Part shown: positions 57,781 through 64,000 of the stretch, piece after piece
Numbering within the stretch: position 1 is the stretch's first letter
Layout of the letters: each line of letters begins with the position of its first letter
Assembly: GCA_965261085.1 (NCBI GenBank)
Contig: OZ253442.1
Span: 1,632,001-1,696,000 of the forward strand
DNA from: a bacterium
GTDB taxonomy: Bacteria; UBA8248
DNA length: 64,000 bases
Direction: 5' to 3'
Translations under genes and position numbers: made by a program
The notes under the pieces: model-generated
Told to the model about the DNA's origin: nothing
The model's input: the letters and a program-made list of their open reading frames with translations, nothing else
The model's database searches: none

Positions 57781-59103
57781 TCATCTTGAATCCACCATAA
57801 ATTCGAGTTTTTTGTTTTGACGACGAAGGCCCGCTAAAGTGTAGATATTACTCTTTAACTTATTGCATGGGCCACAAAGAAGAACTCGATTTGAGATATG
57901 ATTTAAGCCACCATCGGAACGAGGCGTATTATGATCTAATTCCAGATATCTAGGATCATCAAATTCTCGATCACATCCTTGGCATTTTTGTCCATATTGG
58001 TCCAATAAAAATTCGTACATTTCTGCACGAGTCCTTTTTTCACCTTTAGGCTCATCTACTTTTAATTTAGTTTTCAGAAAAGGAACAGCCTCTTCTCCAT
58101 CGTCCGTACGAACAGGAAGTTCTCTAGTATAGGTTATCGTTCCTTGAGTAATGAGCCATTCACCCCACTCTTCGTCGGGCGTTACTAACTGCTCTTGCTT
58201 GAATCTATGAAGCACTGCATCGTGCGCTCCGGCCCAGATATCCGCCCCCACCCATTGGCGTTTAAGCCGTTCAGCCGCAACTAATGTTGTGGCACAACCG
58301 CAAAACGGATCAAGAACAATGTCATTAGGGTTAGACCCAACCTTAACGATGCGGTCAAAAAGCTGAATTGGTTTCTGTGTAGGGTAACCATACCGCTCTT
58401 TTGACATTGGGGGTATAGCGGGTATATCCCACCAATCTTCAGGTATCTTGCCATCTTTATGGGGCATATATGTTTTACCTGTATCCTTACGGGTAACCCC
58501 CCTCCCCGAAGTTTGATAACCGCCTGTCCCCCTATATGGCACCCGCGTTCTGTCGGCATTAAAAACCCAATTCTTGCCCTTAGAATACCAAAATATAATG
58601 TCGTGTTTACGTGCAAACTCCTTAGATGAACGCCCTCCCTGCCTATAACACCATATAATTTCATTCCGAAAATTCTTGTGTCCAAAAACAGCATCCATAA
58701 TGGCTTTGAGATAGTGGCTCGCCGTTGGATCACAATGGAGATAAATACTTCCATCTTCTCGTAGTATTCGCTTCATTTCTAACAACCGTACAGCCATAAA
58801 GCACATATAGGCACCCATACCATCCGAATGAGCATATCGAGCGCTCTCTATTGCTTCCATTAGTTTCGGGAAATCGTCTGTAATCTTATCAACCCATTCC
58901 TGATGAACATCCCTATCCCAAGACCACCTATCCTGAAAAGAAGCACCATCGGCTAGGCTATCTGGCGTAGCATGAAAATCTCGATTCTTGTTGAAGGGCG
59001 GATCAGTAGCAATCAGATGAATAGAATTACTATTGATCTCACGAAGAAAATCTAGGTTATCGCCATGATAAAGAGTTCGATTTTCGACATTTAATTTCGA
59101 CAT
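57781..59103 (-). CDS. Amino-DNA methyltransferase (beta order) fused to HNH endonuclease
   Basis: DPPF motif IV, YPTQKP, LDPFCGCATT motif I; C-terminal CQGC...DHNTP..GG.NHISN...CGPCN; low GC. Confidence 0.9.
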   Translation of the reverse strand: MSKLNVENRTLYHGDNLDFLREINSNSIHLIATDPPFNKNRDFHATPDSLADGASFQDRWSWDRDVHQEWVDKITDDFPKLMEAIESARYAHSDGMGAYMCFMAVRLLEMKRILREDGSIYLHCDPTASHYLKAIMDAVFGHKNFRNEIIWCYRQGGRSSKEFARKHDIIFWYSKGKNWVFNADRTRVPYRGTGGYQTSGRGVTRKDTGKTYMPHKDGKIPEDWWDIPAIPPMSKERYGYPTQKPIQLFDRIVKVGSNPNDIVLDPFCGCATTLVAAERLKRQWVGADIWAGAHDAVLHRFKQEQLVTPDEEWGEWLITQGTITYTRELPVRTDDGEEAVPFLKTKLKVDEPKGEKRTRAEMYEFLLDQYGQKCQGCDREFDDPRYLELDHNTPRSDGGLNHISNRVLLCGPCNKLKSNIYTLAGLRRQNKKLEFMVDSR

Positions 59104-61028: not shown

Positions 61029-61763
61029 TTAGTGGAAATGAATGCCGCCGTTCAGAAGGAGGGTCTGGCCCGTAATGTAGCCGTTTCTAATCATCATCAT
61101 AATGGCGTCGACCGTCTCCTCCACCGTGCCGAACCGCTCCATCGGGTTATGGGGGGTGGAGACTTGTAAGTCTTGCGTCATCATGTCGGTTTTTATTACG
61201 GCGGGCGCCACGCTGTTCATCGTGATGCCTTCTTTCACCAGGGCGGCGGCGTAGGCGTGGGTGAGCCCGTGCATGCCCGCCTTGGAAGCCGCGTAGTGCG
61301 GCCCGACCCGCCCTCCGGTGAAGGCGGCGTTCGATGAGACGTTGACGATTCTTCCCCACCGCGCTTGTTTCATGTCGGGCAGAACGGCCTGTGTGAGTAA
61401 AAACGCGGACTTGAGATTCACGTCGAGCGTGGCGTCCCAATCGGATTCGGTGAGTTCCTCAAATGGCTTCTTGATGGCGACGCCTGCGTTGTTCACGAGA
61501 ATCGAGACGGGGCCGAAGCGCGCTCTCGTCTCATCCACGAGGCGGCGGACTTGCGCCTCGTCCGATACGTCGGCTTTCACGGGATGCGCCTCTCCGCCCG
61601 CTTCATCTATCAGGCGGCAGGCTTCTCCCGCTTCGTCCGCGCGCTCGCGGTAGTTCACCGCCACGCGGCAGCCCGCGCCCCCTAATGCCAGCGCGCATCC
61701 GCGCCCGATGCCCCGGCTCGCGCCGGTGACGATGCAGGTTTTCCCCTTCAAATCCGGTGGCAA
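61029..61763 (-). CDS. SDR family oxidoreductase (FabG-like)
   Basis: TGASRGIG, NNAG, YAASK. Confidence 0.92.
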   Translation of the reverse strand: MPPDLKGKTCIVTGASRGIGRGCALALGGAGCRVAVNYRERADEAGEACRLIDEAGGEAHPVKADVSDEAQVRRLVDETRARFGPVSILVNNAGVAIKKPFEELTESDWDATLDVNLKSAFLLTQAVLPDMKQARWGRIVNVSSNAAFTGGRVGPHYAASKAGMHGLTHAYAAALVKEGITMNSVAPAVIKTDMMTQDLQVSTPHNPMERFGTVEETVDAIMMMIRNGYITGQTLLLNGGIHFH

Positions 61764-61873
61764 CTCGGGGCCCTCACAGAATGAGAATATGAACGCCCAT
61801 CCTAATCCATACGCCGCGAGATGGGCAGTCGAGATGGGGATTTTTGTTATGGTTTGAGAAATCTACAAGAAGA

Positions 61874-61902
61874 TTGACAGTGAGAAACGAGAAGTATATT
61901 TT
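61874..61902 (+). promoter_or_regulatory. Putative sigma70 promoter for the repeat/RT locus
   Basis: TTGACA (61874-61879), 17 bp, TATTTT (61897-61902), 18 bp before repeat 1. Confidence 0.55.
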
Positions 61903-61920
61903 CAAATTGCGTATCCGTGA

Positions 61921-62447
61921 TCGTCGCCGGGCATATATTGTGCGCCGGAAAGACGGGAAGCGGGCCACCATTTGTCGGTAACGTTCCGATGAAGGGTGGA
62001 CGGGTTGCCGACGGATGTGTCTTATCAGACCCATTCGCAGGTCCCGTGAAGCAACAGGTTAGCCTTGCCTCAGGAATGACCGTTGCCCTCGATGTGGAGG
62101 TCCAGATCGAGTGTCGGGCGGTCAATGGGGCAAATTATAGGCTGCGCCTGTCCGGGGCGGTCGATTTGGACTTGCTTTCCTCGCGAAAAAGGTACAATGC
62201 TTTAAGGAGGAACGCACGATGAAATCGCACCCATGCAAAAACGTGCCAACTTCCGAGTTGGACATGTAGCTATCAGATTTGTTCACGTGATAGCGCTTGC
62301 AGTTACGTTGCTCGTCGCCGGGCATATATTGTGCGCCGGAAAGACGGGAAGCGGGCCACCATTTGTCGGTAACGTTCCGATGAAGGGTGGACGGGTTGCC
62401 GACGGATGGGTCTTATCAGACCCATTCGCAGGTCCCGTGAAGCAACA
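61921..62447 (+). repeat. Two 136-bp structured direct repeats (61921-62056, 62312-62447) with a 255-bp spacer; candidate RT-associated ncRNA
   Basis: Copies differ at one base (62018 T vs 62409 G); internal pairings ACGGGA/TCCCGT and CATTTGTCGGTAAC/GTTGCCGACGGATG. Confidence 0.9.
62219..62269 (+). CDS. Putative 16-aa peptide MKSHPCKNVPTSELDM
   Basis: TAAGGAGG SD 8 nt upstream of ATG; TACAAT just upstream. Confidence 0.35.
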   Translation: MKSHPCKNVPTSELDM

Positions 62448-62506
62448 ATGCTTCCAGAGGCAAGGCGAGGCAATCCGACGTCGCCTGCCCCAGAGATCCT
62501 TTAGTG

Positions 62507-64000
62507 GTGAACTTATTTATTGAAGCAACAAAACAGTCTTCTCTTCGCCATGCATGGTACAGGATCCGTGCAAATGGTATCCGATCACCGCAACAAGAGA
62601 CCCGTGATGCCATTAATGAATTTGAACGCGCTGCTGAGAACTATATTGTCCGTGTTCAGAGAAGATTACGTAATGGCAGCTTTTTGTTTGAACCACAAAC
62701 AGGTGTTAGGAAGAAAAAGCGAAGTGGCGGAAAAAGGGGCATCGTCATGGCCCCTATTCAAAACCGAATCGTCGAGCGTGCTTGGCTGAACTGTCTGCAA
62801 AAACATGTGCCCTTTGTCCGCAATGTGATTCAGACGCCGACGAGCGTAGGCGGCGTTCCTGATCGAAGCGTTCCGCATGGACTACTTCTCATCCGTGGTT
62901 CTATGCGCGAAGGAAAAAAGTGTTTCATTCGGGCGGATATTTCGGGATTTTTTGACGGAATCCCGCGTCGCGATGTCATCTGCACATTGGGGCAGCATAT
63001 TGATGATGGCAATTTCCTGAAGACTTTGGAAGCTGCAACCGAAGTAACCTTGGAGAATGAAAAAGCGCTCGGTGAAGATCGGAAGCTTTTTCCGACTGAT
63101 AGAGAAGGTGTAGCACAAGGATCACCTCTCTCCGCCTTGTTCGGCAATATTCTACTTCATAAATTTGACAAGCAGTTTAATGAACGAGGGATTGTATGCG
63201 TTCGCTTCATAGATGATTTCATCATGCTTGGCGAACGACAAAGTGATGTACGCAAGGCGTTTGAGAATGCAAATGTGCATCTGGAGGATCTTGGTCTCAA
63301 ATGCCATGACCCTTTCAAGAGTGAAACGTCCCAAGGCAAGGCGCAGTATGGCCTTGTTGAAAGTGGTTTTATCTTTCTTGGTTACGATATTCGGCCTGGC
63401 CTTATGCAACCGTCAAAGCAAGCACGGAAGACGTTCTTAAATACGCTGGATCGTCATCTTAGATATGGTCGAGAAGCGATTTTAGATGTTTTGAGCGCGC
63501 AGGACAGCTTCGCGCATCGGCAACGTTATGTGCAGACTTTGGCTCTGCTAGATCGAGTTGTCCGTGGCTGGGGAAACTCGTTCGCTTATTCAAATGCGAC
63601 AGCTACAACGAATGACCTTGACAAACAAATCGAGCTTAAGATTGAGCAGTTTCGTGATTGGTATCGGCGCAAATTGCGCGATGCTGATTGGAAGGCAAAA
63701 CGCCGGGCTGGCGGCGTGTGCCTCCTGGCTGATATCGAGTCGAAAAGCCTTGATGAGCTTCCATTTCGCTTAGGAGAAAGAAAACGATATCGGCGAACAA
63801 AAGGTATGATCGTTGTTTCGACCGACGGTTCGGTGATCGGTGCTGGTCCTCGTGCTGGACGCGATAAGGGCCCAGGTGGCTGGGGAGTCGTTTTTCATAG
63901 TAGTGGTAAAGAGGCGAGTGGGAACGCTTCTGATGTGACGAATAACGAAATGGAGTTGGTGGCTGTCATTGAGGCGCTAAAGCTAACGCCTCCAGGAAGC
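62507..64000 (+). CDS. Group II intron-like (G2L4-type) reverse transcriptase fused to RNase H (runs off the window)
   Basis: Hand translation of 498 stop-free codons from GTG: KRGIVMAPIQNRIVERA, ADISGFFD, GVAQGSPLS, RFIDDF (FIDD 63206-63217), FLGY, RGWGNSF; then STDGS, GPGGWG, TNNEMELVAVIEAL. Confidence 0.92.
   Translation, partial: MNLFIEATKQSSLRHAWYRIRANGIRSPQQETRDAINEFERAAENYIVRVQRRLRNGSFLFEPQTGVRKKKRSGGKRGIVMAPIQNRIVERAWLNCLQKHVPFVRNVIQTPTSVGGVPDRSVPHGLLLIRGSMREGKKCFIRADISGFFDGIPRRDVICTLGQHIDDGNFLKTLEAATEVTLENEKALGEDRKLFPTDREGVAQGSPLSALFGNILLHKFDKQFNERGIVCVRFIDDFIMLGERQSDVRKAFENANVHLEDLGLKCHDPFKSETSQGKAQYGLVESGFIFLGYDIRPGLMQPSKQARKTFLNTLDRHLRYGREAILDVLSAQDSFAHRQRYVQTLALLDRVVRGWGNSFAYSNATATTNDLDKQIELKIEQFRDWYRRKLRDADWKAKRRAGGVCLLADIESKSLDELPFRLGERKRYRRTKGMIVVSTDGSVIGAGPRAGRDKGPGGWGVVFHSSGKEASGNASDVTNNEMELVAVIEALKLTPPGS

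What the first reader, a model, noticed from the sequence alone, without database searches (positions are those of the whole stretch)
61874..64000. RT-RNase H fusion preceded by twin 136-bp structured direct repeats: candidate RT/ncRNA system
Seen: an ORF absent from the ORF track because it has no stop in the window. It encodes an RT with FIDD in place of YADD, a thumb region, and from about 63806 an RNase HI domain (STDGS, GPGGWG, TNNEMEL). Upstream are a sigma70-like promoter and two repeats identical at 135 of 136 bp, each folding into a long hairpin. GC content is below that of flanking genes. Known, from memory and to be verified: (Y/F)IDD and upstream twin palindromic repeats characterise G2L4 group II intron-like RTs, which were linked to DNA repair, with the repeats left unexplained. 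Inference: one transcript with two direct repeats plus RT-RNase H is the toolkit for LTR-like strand transfer. It could make circular or concatemeric cDNA of the 391-bp repeat+spacer unit for defence, repair or mobility.
Basis: partly seen in the sequence, partly recalled or inferred. Interest (0 to 1): 0.9.

Follow-up and report, generated by a model that had tools for sequence, protein, structure and literature searches.

The report
G2L4 RT–RNase H repair cassette
A small horizontally acquired cassette encodes a known kind of bacterial DNA-repair reverse transcriptase, here naturally fused to an RNase H domain and preceded by that family's unexplained twin repeats, which prove to be parts of one large, conserved, folded leader RNA.

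Summary
Window 62504-64000 opens a 582-aa ORF that ends at 64252 in the genome. It holds an RT with FIDD, a thumb and a C-terminal RNase HI. Upstream lie a sigma70-like promoter and two 139-nt repeats (137/139 identical, 391 nt apart).

The RT part matches solved G2L4 RT structures (E 1.9e-75). The twin ~140-bp repeats with a ~240-bp spacer are already published for G2L4 (Park et al. 2022), so the core is known.

What I did not find in print:
- The RNase H fusion is a large clade on one branch inside G2L4.
- The ~600-nt leader is a covarying structured RNA: 91% of cells paired versus 79% in shuffles, and 68 of 112 pairs compensated.
- The repeats evolve in concert: 94-100% identical within a locus, about 50% between loci.
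- Nine of 36 fused-clade loci are single-repeat deletion forms.
- An SD-led micro-ORF and a stop-free frame cross repeat 2, but without peptide-level selection (dN/dS about 1).
- The cassette (~2.36 kb) replaced a host oxidoreductase gene.

Unfused relatives carry the same repeats, and no extra DNA copies or joints were seen. Verdict: a new variant of a known kind, of moderate interest.

The parts
61846..64000 (+). Horizontally acquired cassette (~2356 nt). It continues past the window end to window-equivalent 64201.
   Evidence: Relatives G008 and G006 match the window's flanks up to L001 1845 and again from 4201/4202. Relative G004 has the two flanks about 60 nt apart, i.e. an empty site. 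Low GC over the cassette.
61874..61902 (+). Sigma70-like promoter P1 (TTGACA-17-TATTTT).
   Evidence: The TTG and TA columns are conserved in position in 18-20 aligned loci. Function not shown.
61907..62060 (+). LDR1 domain, with repeat core 61918-62056. It forms three hairpins: H2 61927-61948, H3/H4 61965-61999 and H5/H6 62001-62046.
   Evidence: Repeat. Covariance model R1 hit at 120 bits. Pairs and covariation. Coordinates.
62066..62075 (+). 5' strand of long-range helix H7, which pairs with 62453-62462.
   Evidence: 8 of 10 pairs show compensatory changes and 92% of cells are paired. Seen as inverted repeat I1. Coordinates.
62078..62123 (+). Conserved spacer hairpin (H8/H9).
   Evidence: 99% and 90% of cells paired. 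Columns 255:274 read CG in 8 and UA in 7 loci; columns 256:273 read CG in 8 and GC in 7.
62171..62198 (+). Conserved box CTTGCT-N16-TACAAT, a possible internal promoter P2.
   Evidence: The TTG and TAxxxT columns are invariant or nearly so in A2. The P. aeruginosa locus has TTGACG-N16-TAGCAT at the matching place (read). The consensus scan did not call it. Inference only.
62204..62269 (+). AAGGAGG box plus a 16-codon micro-ORF (ATG at 62219, MKSHPCKNVPTSELDM*).
   Evidence: An SD-proximal start codon is in frame with TGC-AAA-AAC in 24 of 27 loci that carry the exact motif. Start-to-motif distances differ by multiples of 3.
62232..62248 (+). Deeply conserved motif CATGCAAAAACGTGCCA.
   Evidence: Present in the fused clade, in the P. 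aeruginosa unfused locus and in 17 of 24 twin-repeat metagenomic loci, against 0 of 20 loci without twins.
62233..62523 (+). Frame kept stop-free through LDR2 ('ORF-B', the -1 frame relative to the micro-ORF). It overlaps the RT start by 20 nt.
   Evidence: Open to the LDR2 end in 28 of 33 loci as counted, plus 3 that are open from the next codon. The other two frames reach that point in 1 of 33 and 7 of 33. dN/dS is 0.37-2.05, so the peptide is not under selection.
62297..62451 (+). LDR2 domain, with repeat core 62309-62447. It is closed by H13 (62295-62299 with 62439-62443).
   Evidence: (110 bits).
62453..62462 (+). 3' strand of long-range helix H7.
62463..62486 (+). Leader hairpin H19, followed by the purine-rich CCCCAGAGA and the RT start.
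   Evidence: 99% of cells paired and 3 of 6 pairs compensated. Coordinates.
62504..64000 (+). G2L4-type RT-RNase HI fusion gene. It is 582 aa and its stop lies at window-equivalent 64250-64252. The last 17 codons come from the displaced host gene.
63206..63217 (+). RT active-site motif FIDD (aa 235-238).
   Evidence: In 120 fused-length relatives the positions read F 118 / Y 2, I 109 / V 10 / L 1, and DD in 120 of 120.
63524..63703 (+). Thumb / maturase-like domain X (aa 341-400).
   Evidence: Pfam GIIM at 23.0 bits, exactly at the cut-off. Aligned to the thumb of 9d5x.
63806..64000 (+). RNase HI domain (aa ~435-570), cut by the window end.
   Evidence: Catalytic D441, E484 and D506 are kept in 120 of 120 relatives. 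The fourth position is N here, and D in 109, N in 6, H in 4 of 120. The 13-aa basic protrusion of E. coli RNase HI is absent.

Best explanation
This is a ~2.36-kb horizontally acquired G2L4 cassette. A promoter drives a ~600-nt structured leader RNA that holds two near-identical three-hairpin domains, the published 'long direct repeats'. The gene that follows encodes a group II intron-like G2L4 reverse transcriptase with a C-terminal RNase HI fused to it.

Shown here:
- family membership;
- a single origin of the fusion inside G2L4;
- an RNase H active site kept intact;
- RNA-level selection (not peptide-level) on the whole leader, including a long-range helix that ties the segment after repeat 1 to the segment after repeat 2;
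- concerted evolution of the two repeats and natural single-repeat deletion forms;
- the insertion borders.

Inferred:
- The RT works like its studied P. aeruginosa relative, as a Pol-theta-like polymerase in double-strand-break repair by microhomology-mediated end joining.
- The fused RNase H lacks its own substrate-binding handle. It therefore works on hybrids held by the RT, removing RNA strands from R-loops at breaks or from RNA used as template or primer.
- The leader acts in cis as an RT-binding regulatory or cofactor RNA, with two identical domains for the two subunits of the dimeric RT. It gates RT translation, and ribosomes crossing repeat 2 in one frame are part of that control.
- The repeats stay identical by ordinary gene conversion, not by reverse transcription.
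For: Identity:
- PDB G2L4 RT matches at E 1.9e-75 over aa 12-412.
- FIDD is present, and Rfam finds no intron RNA or any other family at E<=1.
- Repeats of 139 nt with a 252-nt spacer match Park et al.'s ~140/~240.

Fusion clade:
- Of the 120 best hits listed, 119 carry RVT_1 plus RNase_H.
- All 12 fused rows lie on one side of one branch (SH-aLRT 93), nested among 63 unfused representatives.
- D-E-D is kept in 120 of 120. The domain is RNase HI-type with the basic protrusion deleted.

Leader RNA:
- 112 consensus pairs, 68 with compensatory change.
- 91.0% of cells paired versus 78.9% in shuffles (0 of 500 as high) and 34-45% when partners are slid.
- G-U pairs fit only the + strand.

Not coding:
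- Entropy by codon position is 0.98/1.18/1.17 in LDR1, against 0.85/0.62/1.59 in the RT gene.
- dN/dS is 0.37-2.05 in the leader versus 0.04-0.10 in the RT.
- Leader pS is 0.10 versus RT pS 0.76 in the same pair, L017-L018.

Concerted evolution: 94-100% identity within a locus versus a median of 50% between loci.

Deletion forms: 9 single-repeat loci lack all spacer motifs.

Family-wide geometry: unfused loci have twins of 125-145 nt with spacing 332-388.

Published context: repeat RNA has about 20-fold higher coverage on what I read as the RT-sense strand, co-expressed repeats 'modulated' survival, and G2L4 RT is a dimer.

Borders.
Against: - Function is carried over from a relative that is only ~34% identical. 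Nothing here shows repair activity, RNA binding or regulation.
- The RT3a stretch that holds the published autoinhibitory arginines aligns to a 3-residue gap here, so regulation of the enzyme may differ.
- This window's RNase H has Asn at the fourth carboxylate.
- The covariation structure was derived from the same alignment on which it was counted.
- The covariance model from the fused clade does not recognise the repeats of unfused loci. Homology of the RNA across the whole family therefore rests on geometry, shared spacer motifs and a moderate duplex test: cognate -29.9 versus non-cognate -24.0 kcal/mol, with the cognate better than its non-cognate mean in 40 of 43 loci.
- Near-identity of the repeats could also reflect a need for exact homology, which would favour the cDNA rival.
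- 9 of 36 fused loci manage with one repeat, though 3 of the 5 checked have broken RT frames.
Confidence: 0.6

Rival explanations
1. The leader is a template. The RT copies it, the fused RNase H frees the nascent cDNA, and the cDNA of one repeat anneals to the other repeat. This LTR-like or DRT2-like template switch would give circular or concatemeric cDNA of the 391-nt unit for repair, defence or mobility.
For: - An RT plus RNase H plus two direct repeats on one predicted transcript.
- The repeats are kept 94-100% identical within each locus while diverging to about 50% between loci. This is what a homology-dependent switch would need.
- The RNase H lacks its own substrate handle, as in retroviral RTs.
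- The repeat RNA is abundant in P. aeruginosa.
Against: - Both repeats lie 5' of the ORF.
- Unfused G2L4 genes have the same twins without RNase H.
- 9 single-repeat forms and 0 three-repeat forms were seen.
- In the four runs (contigs, one sample) the repeat unitig has about twice the spacer and RT depth and there are no joints. This is weak, because ssDNA and rare forms would be missed.
- By eye I saw no tRNA-complementary site or purine tract next to the repeats; this was not tested formally.
- Published G2L4 RT is poor at extending long primers.
Confidence: 0.12
2. It is an anti-phage defence RT (DRT-like). The leader would be a sensor or template ncRNA, and the RNase H would be the effector or a processing activity.
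For: - PADLOC DRT models hit the RT (UG17 E 6.5e-34, UG4 5.6e-28).
- The P. aeruginosa copy sits beside a TIR-domain gene and a recombinase.
- A review reports that 25% of G2L RTs lie near defence genes (PMC8632793, passages).
- A ThsB-TIR/8xMP island lies about 8 kb downstream in this genome.
Against: - The PADLOC hits are generic RT similarity; the best hit is the plain 'RT' model.
- NCBIfam Drt scores fall far below their cut-offs.
- The cassette moves alone, and 0 of 20 nearest long flanking ORFs recur.
- No phage contig carries it.
- The studied homolog acts in repair.
Confidence: 0.1
3. The repeats are coding. Two paralogous small proteins would share a 46-aa segment: ORF-A through repeat 1, and ORF-B ('MQKRA...' plus a hydrophobic stretch) through repeat 2.
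For: - One phase is stop-free through repeat 1 in 18 of 18 loci.
- The matching frame through repeat 2 is open in 28-31 of 33 loci across fused and unfused clades.
- An SD box and start codon are conserved.
- NCBI's annotation calls a 'hypothetical protein' there in P. aeruginosa.
- Indels in the repeat alignment are 3 and 9 nt.
Against: - There is no codon periodicity, while the RT control shows it.
- dN/dS is about 1.
- All three codon positions of the conserved motif are fixed.
- Paired versus unpaired columns explain the conservation.
- Column resampling gives the open phase a 0.59 chance of being stop-free from composition alone.
- The SD-proximal start opens the other frame.
Confidence: 0.07
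4. The cassette is itself a retroelement that spreads by reverse transcription of its own RNA.
For: - It moves as a 2.4-kb unit with no integrase.
- High-identity homology between L025 and L016 starts at the predicted transcript start.
- It encodes both RT and RNase H.
Against: - In this genome the inserted DNA includes 28 nt upstream of the -35 box, so the promoter came with it.
- The insertion replaced about 1 kb of host DNA and lost the native C-terminal tail, which looks like illegitimate recombination.
- There is one copy per genome.
- There is no endonuclease domain.
Confidence: 0.04

Closest known systems
G2L4 RT of Pseudomonas aeruginosa with upstream long direct repeats (Park et al. 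2022, bioRxiv 10.1101/2022.03.14.484287; structures 9d5x/9d4s, bioRxiv 10.1101/2025.01.14.632616)
   Same: - RT fold from the N-terminal extension to the thumb (E 1.9e-75).
- I/V at the second active-site position, (Y/F)IDD.
- A low-GC acquired island.
- Twin ~140-nt repeats, a ~240-nt spacer and about 60 nt to the start codon. The P. aeruginosa plasmid copy has 137 nt, spacing 376 and 63 nt.
- Shared spacer motifs.
   Different: - An RNase HI domain is fused through a conserved basic linker.
- F replaces Y (118 of 120).
- The RT3a stretch is 3 residues shorter.
- The repeat sequence is not recognisable by the clade's covariance model.
- RT identity is only ~34%.
- 'RNase H' occurs 0 times in the main texts of the three G2L4 papers I searched. 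Their supplements were not seen.
Mobile group II intron RT / maturase
   Same: RT with N-terminal extension, RT2a/3a insertions and a thumb (TIGR04416 137 bits; PDB 7uim E 6.9e-15). From my recall, intron RTs bind a stem-loop at the start of their own ORF and so repress their own translation. That is the model for my regulatory inference.
   Different: The score is below the family cut-off of 300. There is no ribozyme: Rfam finds nothing at E<=1, and only 44 nt follow the ORF. There is no DNA-binding or endonuclease domain.
Retroviral / LTR-retrotransposon RT-RNase H
   Same: Domain order is polymerase-thumb-linker-RNase H. The RNase H lacks the basic protrusion, so it probably depends on the polymerase for substrate binding (recalled from work on HIV RNase H).
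   Different: - The RNase H is nearer to bacterial RNase HI (E 3e-16) than to HIV's (E about 2e-4).
- The repeats do not flank the element.
- There is no integrase, protease or gag.
- The fusion arose inside a bacterial RT family, so it is convergent.
DRT2 and retrons (RTs that copy an upstream structured ncRNA)
   Same: A structured non-coding RNA lies directly upstream of the RT on the same strand.
   Different: Drt2 scores 33.6 bits against a cut-off of 390, and retron St85 scores 32.5 against 235. There is no msr/msd-type inverted repeat pair, and no cDNA is known.

Membership tests
G2L4 (group II intron-like 4) RT | Full-length sequence similarity to characterised G2L4 RT, from the N-terminal extension to the thumb | tested here: met
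   9d5x_A E 1.9e-75, aa 12-412 aligned to 12-410. The next non-G2L4 hit, a group II intron RT, is at E 6.9e-15.
G2L4 (group II intron-like 4) RT | (Y/F)IDD instead of YADD at the active site | tested here: met
   FIDD at aa 235-238. Across 120 fused relatives: F 118 / Y 2, I 109 / V 10 / L 1. YIDD as the group's hallmark: PMC4244168 and Park et al. (passages).
G2L4 (group II intron-like 4) RT | Maturase-like thumb kept, but no intron ribozyme | tested here: met
   GIIM at 23.0 bits, at the cut-off. No Rfam family at E<=1 in 61500-64000. The next gene starts 44 nt after the stop.
G2L4 (group II intron-like 4) RT | Two ~140-bp direct repeats with a ~240-bp spacer within 1 kb upstream (in ~70% of members) | tested here: met
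   139 nt with a 252-nt spacer and 57 nt to the start. Twins in 27 of 36 informative fused-clade loci.
G2L4 (group II intron-like 4) RT | Placement inside the G2L4 clade in a tree | tested here: inconclusive
   The fused rows are nested among 63 unfused G2L4-like representatives. The tree has no outgroup of intron or CRISPR RTs, and its root is a midpoint only.
G2L4 (group II intron-like 4) RT | Free-standing protein of ~410-420 aa | tested here: not met
   582 aa with a fused RNase HI. This is the variant feature.
G2L4 (group II intron-like 4) RT | RT3a 'plug' with the paired arginines that block the active site | tested here: inconclusive
   The HMMER alignment puts a 3-residue gap opposite the solved protein's 'rrk'. 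A nearby D-R is nearly invariant in the clade. No structural comparison was made.
G2L4 (group II intron-like 4) RT | Double-strand-break repair / MMEJ activity | not testable with these tools
   Known only for the P. aeruginosa enzyme.
Bacterial RNase HI | DEDD catalytic carboxylates plus the conserved His | tested here: met
   D441, E484 and D506 are kept in 120 of 120, and H547 in 118 of 120. The fourth position is N in this protein, and D 109 / N 6 / H 4 across the clade. From recall, not from a call: only Asn and His substitutions at this position keep E. coli RNase HI active.
Bacterial RNase HI | Basic protrusion (substrate-binding handle) | tested here: not met
   A 13-residue gap lies opposite '...wihnwkkrgwkta...' of E. 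coli RNase HI. The score of 88.8 bits is below the equivalog cut-off of 160.
LTR retroelement | Direct repeats at both ends of the element, with integrase, a primer-binding site and a purine tract | tested here: not met
   Both repeats are 5' of the only ORF. No integrase lies in or beside the cassette. Primer-binding site and purine tract were judged by eye only.
Retron / DRT2 | Family-specific RT signature at the curated score | tested here: not met
   Retron St85 32.5 bits against 235; Drt2 33.6 against 390; Drt3a 43.7 against 200.

The most novel reading that the evidence does not exclude
The twin-repeat leader is not only a regulator but the enzyme's own template. The RT dimer docks on the two identical domains and copies the repeat unit. 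With the fused RNase H clearing the template, it then switches between the repeats to make multicopy or concatemeric cDNA of the 391-nt unit, which would serve in break repair or defence. The requirement for exact homology would then explain why the two repeats are kept identical in every lineage.
Probability: 0.12. Interest if true: 0.85.

Novelty: new variant of a known kind. Interest (0 to 1): 0.55.

Why it matters
G2L4 RTs are the bacterial counterpart of Pol-theta-type end joining, and their twin upstream repeats have stood unexplained since 2022. This locus and its relatives add three things.

1. A large natural clade in which the repair RT has captured an RNase H. Here, RNA-DNA hybrid removal is built into the enzyme, so a role of RNA in bacterial break repair becomes directly testable.

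2. Comparative evidence that the 'repeats' are two domains of one ~600-nt covarying leader RNA. The leader also has a long-range helix, a deeply conserved A-rich motif, an SD-led micro-ORF and a frame kept open across repeat 2. These give precise mutations to make.

3. Natural one-repeat derivatives and exact insertion borders.

RT-RNase H fusions of bacterial origin may also be of use as compact enzymes.

Tried and rejected
- Rfam (E<=1) over 61500-64000 found nothing.
- Protein coding of the repeats was considered seriously. It was rejected as peptide-level selection.
- In one search the line 'observed stop-free loci 7/11/4' is invalid. I had dropped columns absent from L001, which shifts frames.
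- Model R1 from the fused clade does not find the repeats of unfused loci L032, L033 and L046, even with filters off. I did not build a second model for the unfused clades, and I did not run RNAalifold on alignment A5, whose repeat 2 columns are poorly aligned.
- The cognate versus non-cognate duplex test is only moderate, because many loci are close kin.
- Sequencing runs: no RNA holder is listed. The four holders are one sample and contigs only. They show no joints and no excess depth, which cannot exclude rare or single-stranded forms.
- Phage contigs: none encode a relative.
- The plasmid collection gave one hit only.
- Flanking genes show no recurrent partner. Only the longest ORF within 1.3 kb on each side of 10 of the 14 loci listed was scanned.
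- Literature: searches, and term look-ups, found no description of a G2L4-RNase H fusion. Only passages were read, not whole papers. Subscription papers are outside the library, including Kojima & Kanehisa 2008, which I recall but did not see.
- Supplements are closed. Park et al.'s Supplemental File of G2L4 neighbourhoods may list fused members.
- Structure prediction, fold search, complex prediction and the protein atlas were not used. The sequence matches to solved structures already answered the family question, and no coordinates would have been returned to measure active-site spacing.


Full report
OBSERVATION

The window ends inside an ORF that starts at 62504 (GTG). With the genome laid and the next 12 kb fetched, the ORF closes at window-equivalent 64252 and gives 582 aa.
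- Pfam finds RVT_1 (aa 71-269), GIIM (aa 341-400, at the cut-off) and RNase_H.
- NCBIfam finds RNase HI over aa 454-569.
- The active-site motif is FIDD.
- Upstream, two 139-nt direct repeats (61918-62056 and 62309-62447) are 137/139 identical and 391 nt apart.
- The genome has no other copy.
- A TTGACA-17-TATTTT site lies at 61874-61902.
- GC falls to 45-53% against 58.7% genome-wide.

The exception is that each repeat folds as three hairpins, not one long hairpin.

WHAT THE PROTEIN IS

Residues 12-412 align end to end with the solved 'Group II intron-like 4 reverse transcriptase' (9d5x, 9d4s; E 1.9e-75). The next class, group II intron RTs, scores E 6.9e-15.

Park et al. (bioRxiv 10.1101/2022.03.14.484287; passages read) describe exactly this architecture for P. 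aeruginosa G2L4:
- YIDD at the active site;
- a low-GC acquired island;
- 20-fold higher RNA coverage over the repeats, on what I read from the figure legend as the RT-sense strand;
- a modulating effect of the repeats on survival;
- no explanation for the repeats.

THE RNASE H FUSION

'RNase H' occurs 0 times in the main texts of the two Lambowitz-lab preprints and of the 2026 AFM paper. Five literature searches found no description of the fusion. Supplements and subscription papers were not seen.

The fusion is nevertheless common.
- A word-indexed search returned 312 proteins at E<=1e-10. Of the 120 listed, 119 carry RVT_1 plus RNase_H, mostly from Alphaproteobacteria. They are annotated 'ribonuclease HI/retron-type reverse transcriptase' or 'RNase H family protein'.
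- An exhaustive search with the RT part alone found 324 cluster representatives at E<=1e-30. Among the best 150 nearly all are 400-460 aa and unfused (32-44% identical). Only P0056, P0122 and P0131 are of fused length, and P0122 and P0131 are confirmed by Pfam.
- In a tree of 12 fused and 63 unfused rows (RT part only; every second unfused representative of 395-465 aa was used), all fused rows lie on one side of one branch (SH-aLRT 93). That branch is nested among unfused rows. This points to one capture of RNase H inside the family.
- The RNase H is of the bacterial HI type (E 3e-16 to E. coli RNase HI). It lacks the 13-residue basic protrusion.
- D441, E484 and D506 are invariant in 120 of 120 fused proteins. 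The fourth carboxylate is D in 109, N in 6 (this window included) and H in 4.

THE REPEATS ACROSS THE FAMILY

Of 33 related genome loci plus the window's own:
- 20 show twin repeats of 122-154 nt, 97.6-100% identical, with spacing 380-397 (one at 425) and 53-79 nt to the start codon;
- 6 contigs stop within 240 nt of the gene.

A covariance model of the repeat domain gives this picture:
- two hits in each of those 20 loci;
- one RT-proximal hit in L004, L012, L020, L021 and L030, and in L008, whose contig starts in the spacer;
- truncated hits at the very start of L007, L011 and L029;
- nothing in two distant unfused loci.

The single-repeat loci read promoter-repeat-leader-RT, with every spacer motif gone. 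That is the product expected from recombination between the repeats. Three of the five have truncated RT frames.

Nineteen of 80 metagenomic loci fetched with an unfused query proved to be fused. Of these, 7 are twin, 4 single, 7 begin inside repeat 2 and 1 is undetermined. In all, 27 of 36 informative fused-clade loci are twin and 9 are single. L025, L028 and L031 are near-identical copies.

Among unfused metagenomic loci with at least 700 nt upstream, 22 of 38 have twins of 125-145 nt, 95.6-100% identical, with spacing 332-388. Contigs that end soon after the RT could hide an RNase H. A P. aeruginosa plasmid copy has 137-nt twins, spacing 376, and 63 nt to the start.

Within a locus the repeats are 94-100% identical. 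Between loci the median identity is 50%, no better than the spacer at 55%. This is concerted evolution.

RNA, NOT PEPTIDE

The whole unit from the promoter to the start codon aligns across 18 non-redundant loci.
- RNAalifold predicts 112 pairs, 68 of them with compensatory changes.
- Counted on that alignment, 91.0% of cells pair, against 78.9% in shuffles (0 of 500 as high) and 34-45% with partners slid. The covariation score is 0.442 against 0.226.
- Caveat: the structure came from the same alignment.

The fold has these elements:
- three hairpins per repeat;
- a helix that closes repeat 2;
- a strongly covarying spacer hairpin;
- a leader hairpin just before the start codon;
- a long-range helix between the 10 nt after repeat 1 and the 10 nt after repeat 2, with 8 of 10 pairs compensated.

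G-U pairs make sense only on the RT-sense strand.

I noticed that one frame is stop-free through repeat 1 in 18 of 18 loci, so I tested coding.
- Codon-position entropy is flat (0.98/1.18/1.17), while the RT gene gives 0.85/0.62/1.59.
- dN/dS in the open frame is 0.37-2.05, against 0.04-0.10 in the RT.
- 'Synonymous' sites of the leader are far more conserved than those of the RT in the same pairs, for example 0.10 against 0.76.

Selection therefore acts on nucleotides and pairing, not on a peptide.

Something does keep one frame open.
- A GGAG box and start codon open a micro-ORF in frame with TGC-AAA-AAC(G/A)TG-CC in 24 of 27 loci with the exact motif. The start-to-motif distances are 8, 11 or 14 nt.
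- That frame ends before or just inside repeat 2, reaching the repeat's end in only 1 of 33 loci.
- The -1 frame stays open through repeat 2 in 28 of 33 loci, and in 3 more from the next codon on. This holds in fused and unfused clades alike.
- C-AAA-AAC followed by a hairpin resembles a -1 slippery site. This is an idea only.

The 17-nt motif CATGCAAAAACGTGCCA is shared by clades whose RTs are ~34% identical.

CASSETTE AND CONTEXT

Related cassettes in unrelated surroundings share only the stretch from repeat 1 to just past the stop. L025 versus L016, for example, is 94% identical over 2414 nt.

In the window's own genus:
- G004 has the SDR and EamA flanks about 60 nt apart.
- G008 and G006 carry a 341-aa GFO/IDH/MocA oxidoreductase gene at that site.
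- The last 17 residues of that gene are identical to the tail of the window's RT-RNase H.

The cassette (window ~61846-64201) therefore replaced about 1 kb of that gene, and the fusion ORF now reads out into its 3' end. P0002, at 87% identity, has the same tail, while more distant relatives end differently.

The nearest long ORFs beside 10 other cassettes are unrelated to each other, and none is an integrase or transposase (0 of 20). No phage contig encodes a relative.

READS

Four runs of one sample hold the locus, as contigs only and with no RNA on record.
- Unitigs break at the repeat edges.
- The 136-nt repeat unitig has about twice the depth of the spacer and RT unitigs: 9.7 against 5.7-6.2, 18.1 against 10.4-10.6, 20.1 against 11.5-12, and 17.9 against about 9-10.
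- No joints were reported.
- The flank unitig that ends at 61779 is 2-3.5 times deeper than the cassette. This hints that part of the population lacks the cassette.

MECHANISM

What is shown is listed above. What follows is inference. By homology, the RT is a Pol-theta-like repair polymerase.

The RNase H lacks its own substrate handle. It has kept its catalytic residues across a large clade. It probably works on hybrids held by the polymerase, clearing RNA from break-proximal R-loops or from RNA used as primer or template.

The leader is most simply a cis-acting RNA that binds the dimeric RT through its two identical domains and gates RT translation. This echoes the way intron RTs bind a stem-loop at their own start codon (recalled, not from a call). 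Ribosome passage across repeat 2 would be part of the control.

Gene conversion, for which the single-repeat deletion forms are circumstantial evidence, is enough to keep the repeats identical.

It gains nothing from the data, and it does not explain why unfused enzymes have the same repeats. I give it about 0.12.

VERDICT

This is a member of the G2L4 family with its published repeat architecture, in a fused RT-RNase H form that I could not find described: a new variant of a known kind. The comparative results on the leader RNA turn an unexplained feature into testable predictions. Interest is moderate (0.55).

Noticed in passing
window 62204-62269 and 62233-62523: An SD-led micro-ORF (M-x(1-4)-CKN(V/M)P...) stops before repeat 2. 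The -1 frame stays open through repeat 2 up to about the RT start. C-AAA-AAC plus a downstream hairpin looks like a -1 slippery site, so programmed frameshifting or translation-through control of the RT is possible. dN/dS is about 1, so the peptide itself is not selected.
   Followed up: partly
window 64202-64252 (beyond the window; L001 4202-4252) and L043 1524-2549: The last 17 codons of the RT-RNase H ORF are the 3' end of a displaced GFO/IDH/MocA oxidoreductase gene. That gene is intact at the same site in two relatives of the same genus. A third relative has neither the gene nor the cassette.
   Followed up: yes
window 61500-61950 (runs X1-X4): The flank unitig that ends at 61779 has 2-3.5 times the depth of the cassette unitigs. 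Two single-base variants appear at 61605 and 61651. The sample seems to hold related strains with and without the cassette.
   Followed up: no
window 57781-59103 (-): A 440-aa fusion of an N6/N4 DNA methylase with a C-terminal HNH endonuclease domain (Pfam).
   Followed up: partly
L001 11996-13481 (window-equivalent 71996-73481, outside the window): A low-GC (40-45%) three-gene block on the minus strand: ThsB-type TIR, an 8xMP membrane protein, and a second ThsB/TIR. It is a likely Thoeris-like defence island about 8 kb downstream of the cassette.
   Followed up: partly
L025 and L028 (whole loci): The 9.55 kb around the cassette is 99.99% identical in two MAGs labelled Roseibium and Paracoccaceae. 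A T4SS coupling protein gene lies next to the cassette. This is either carriage on a conjugative element or a binning artefact.
   Followed up: no
L003 253-3288: In Tardiphaga sp. the cassette lies directly downstream of uvrB. This is a single case; the other flanks are unrelated.
   Followed up: no
L019 3596-5710: In this locus the frame that crosses repeat 2 runs without a stop into the RT-RNase H frame, giving 704 open codons.
   Followed up: no
L014 3745-3823: A 33-nt partial extra copy of the repeat's 5' end, with an N, sits just before repeat 2 and gives the odd spacing of 425. It is either a small duplication or an assembly artefact.
   Followed up: no
L046 2741-2935 (P. aeruginosa plasmid NZ_CP131792.1): NCBI's annotation calls a 64-aa 'hypothetical protein' that is the open frame through repeat 2. 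A recombinase and a TIR-domain gene follow the RT.
   Followed up: partly
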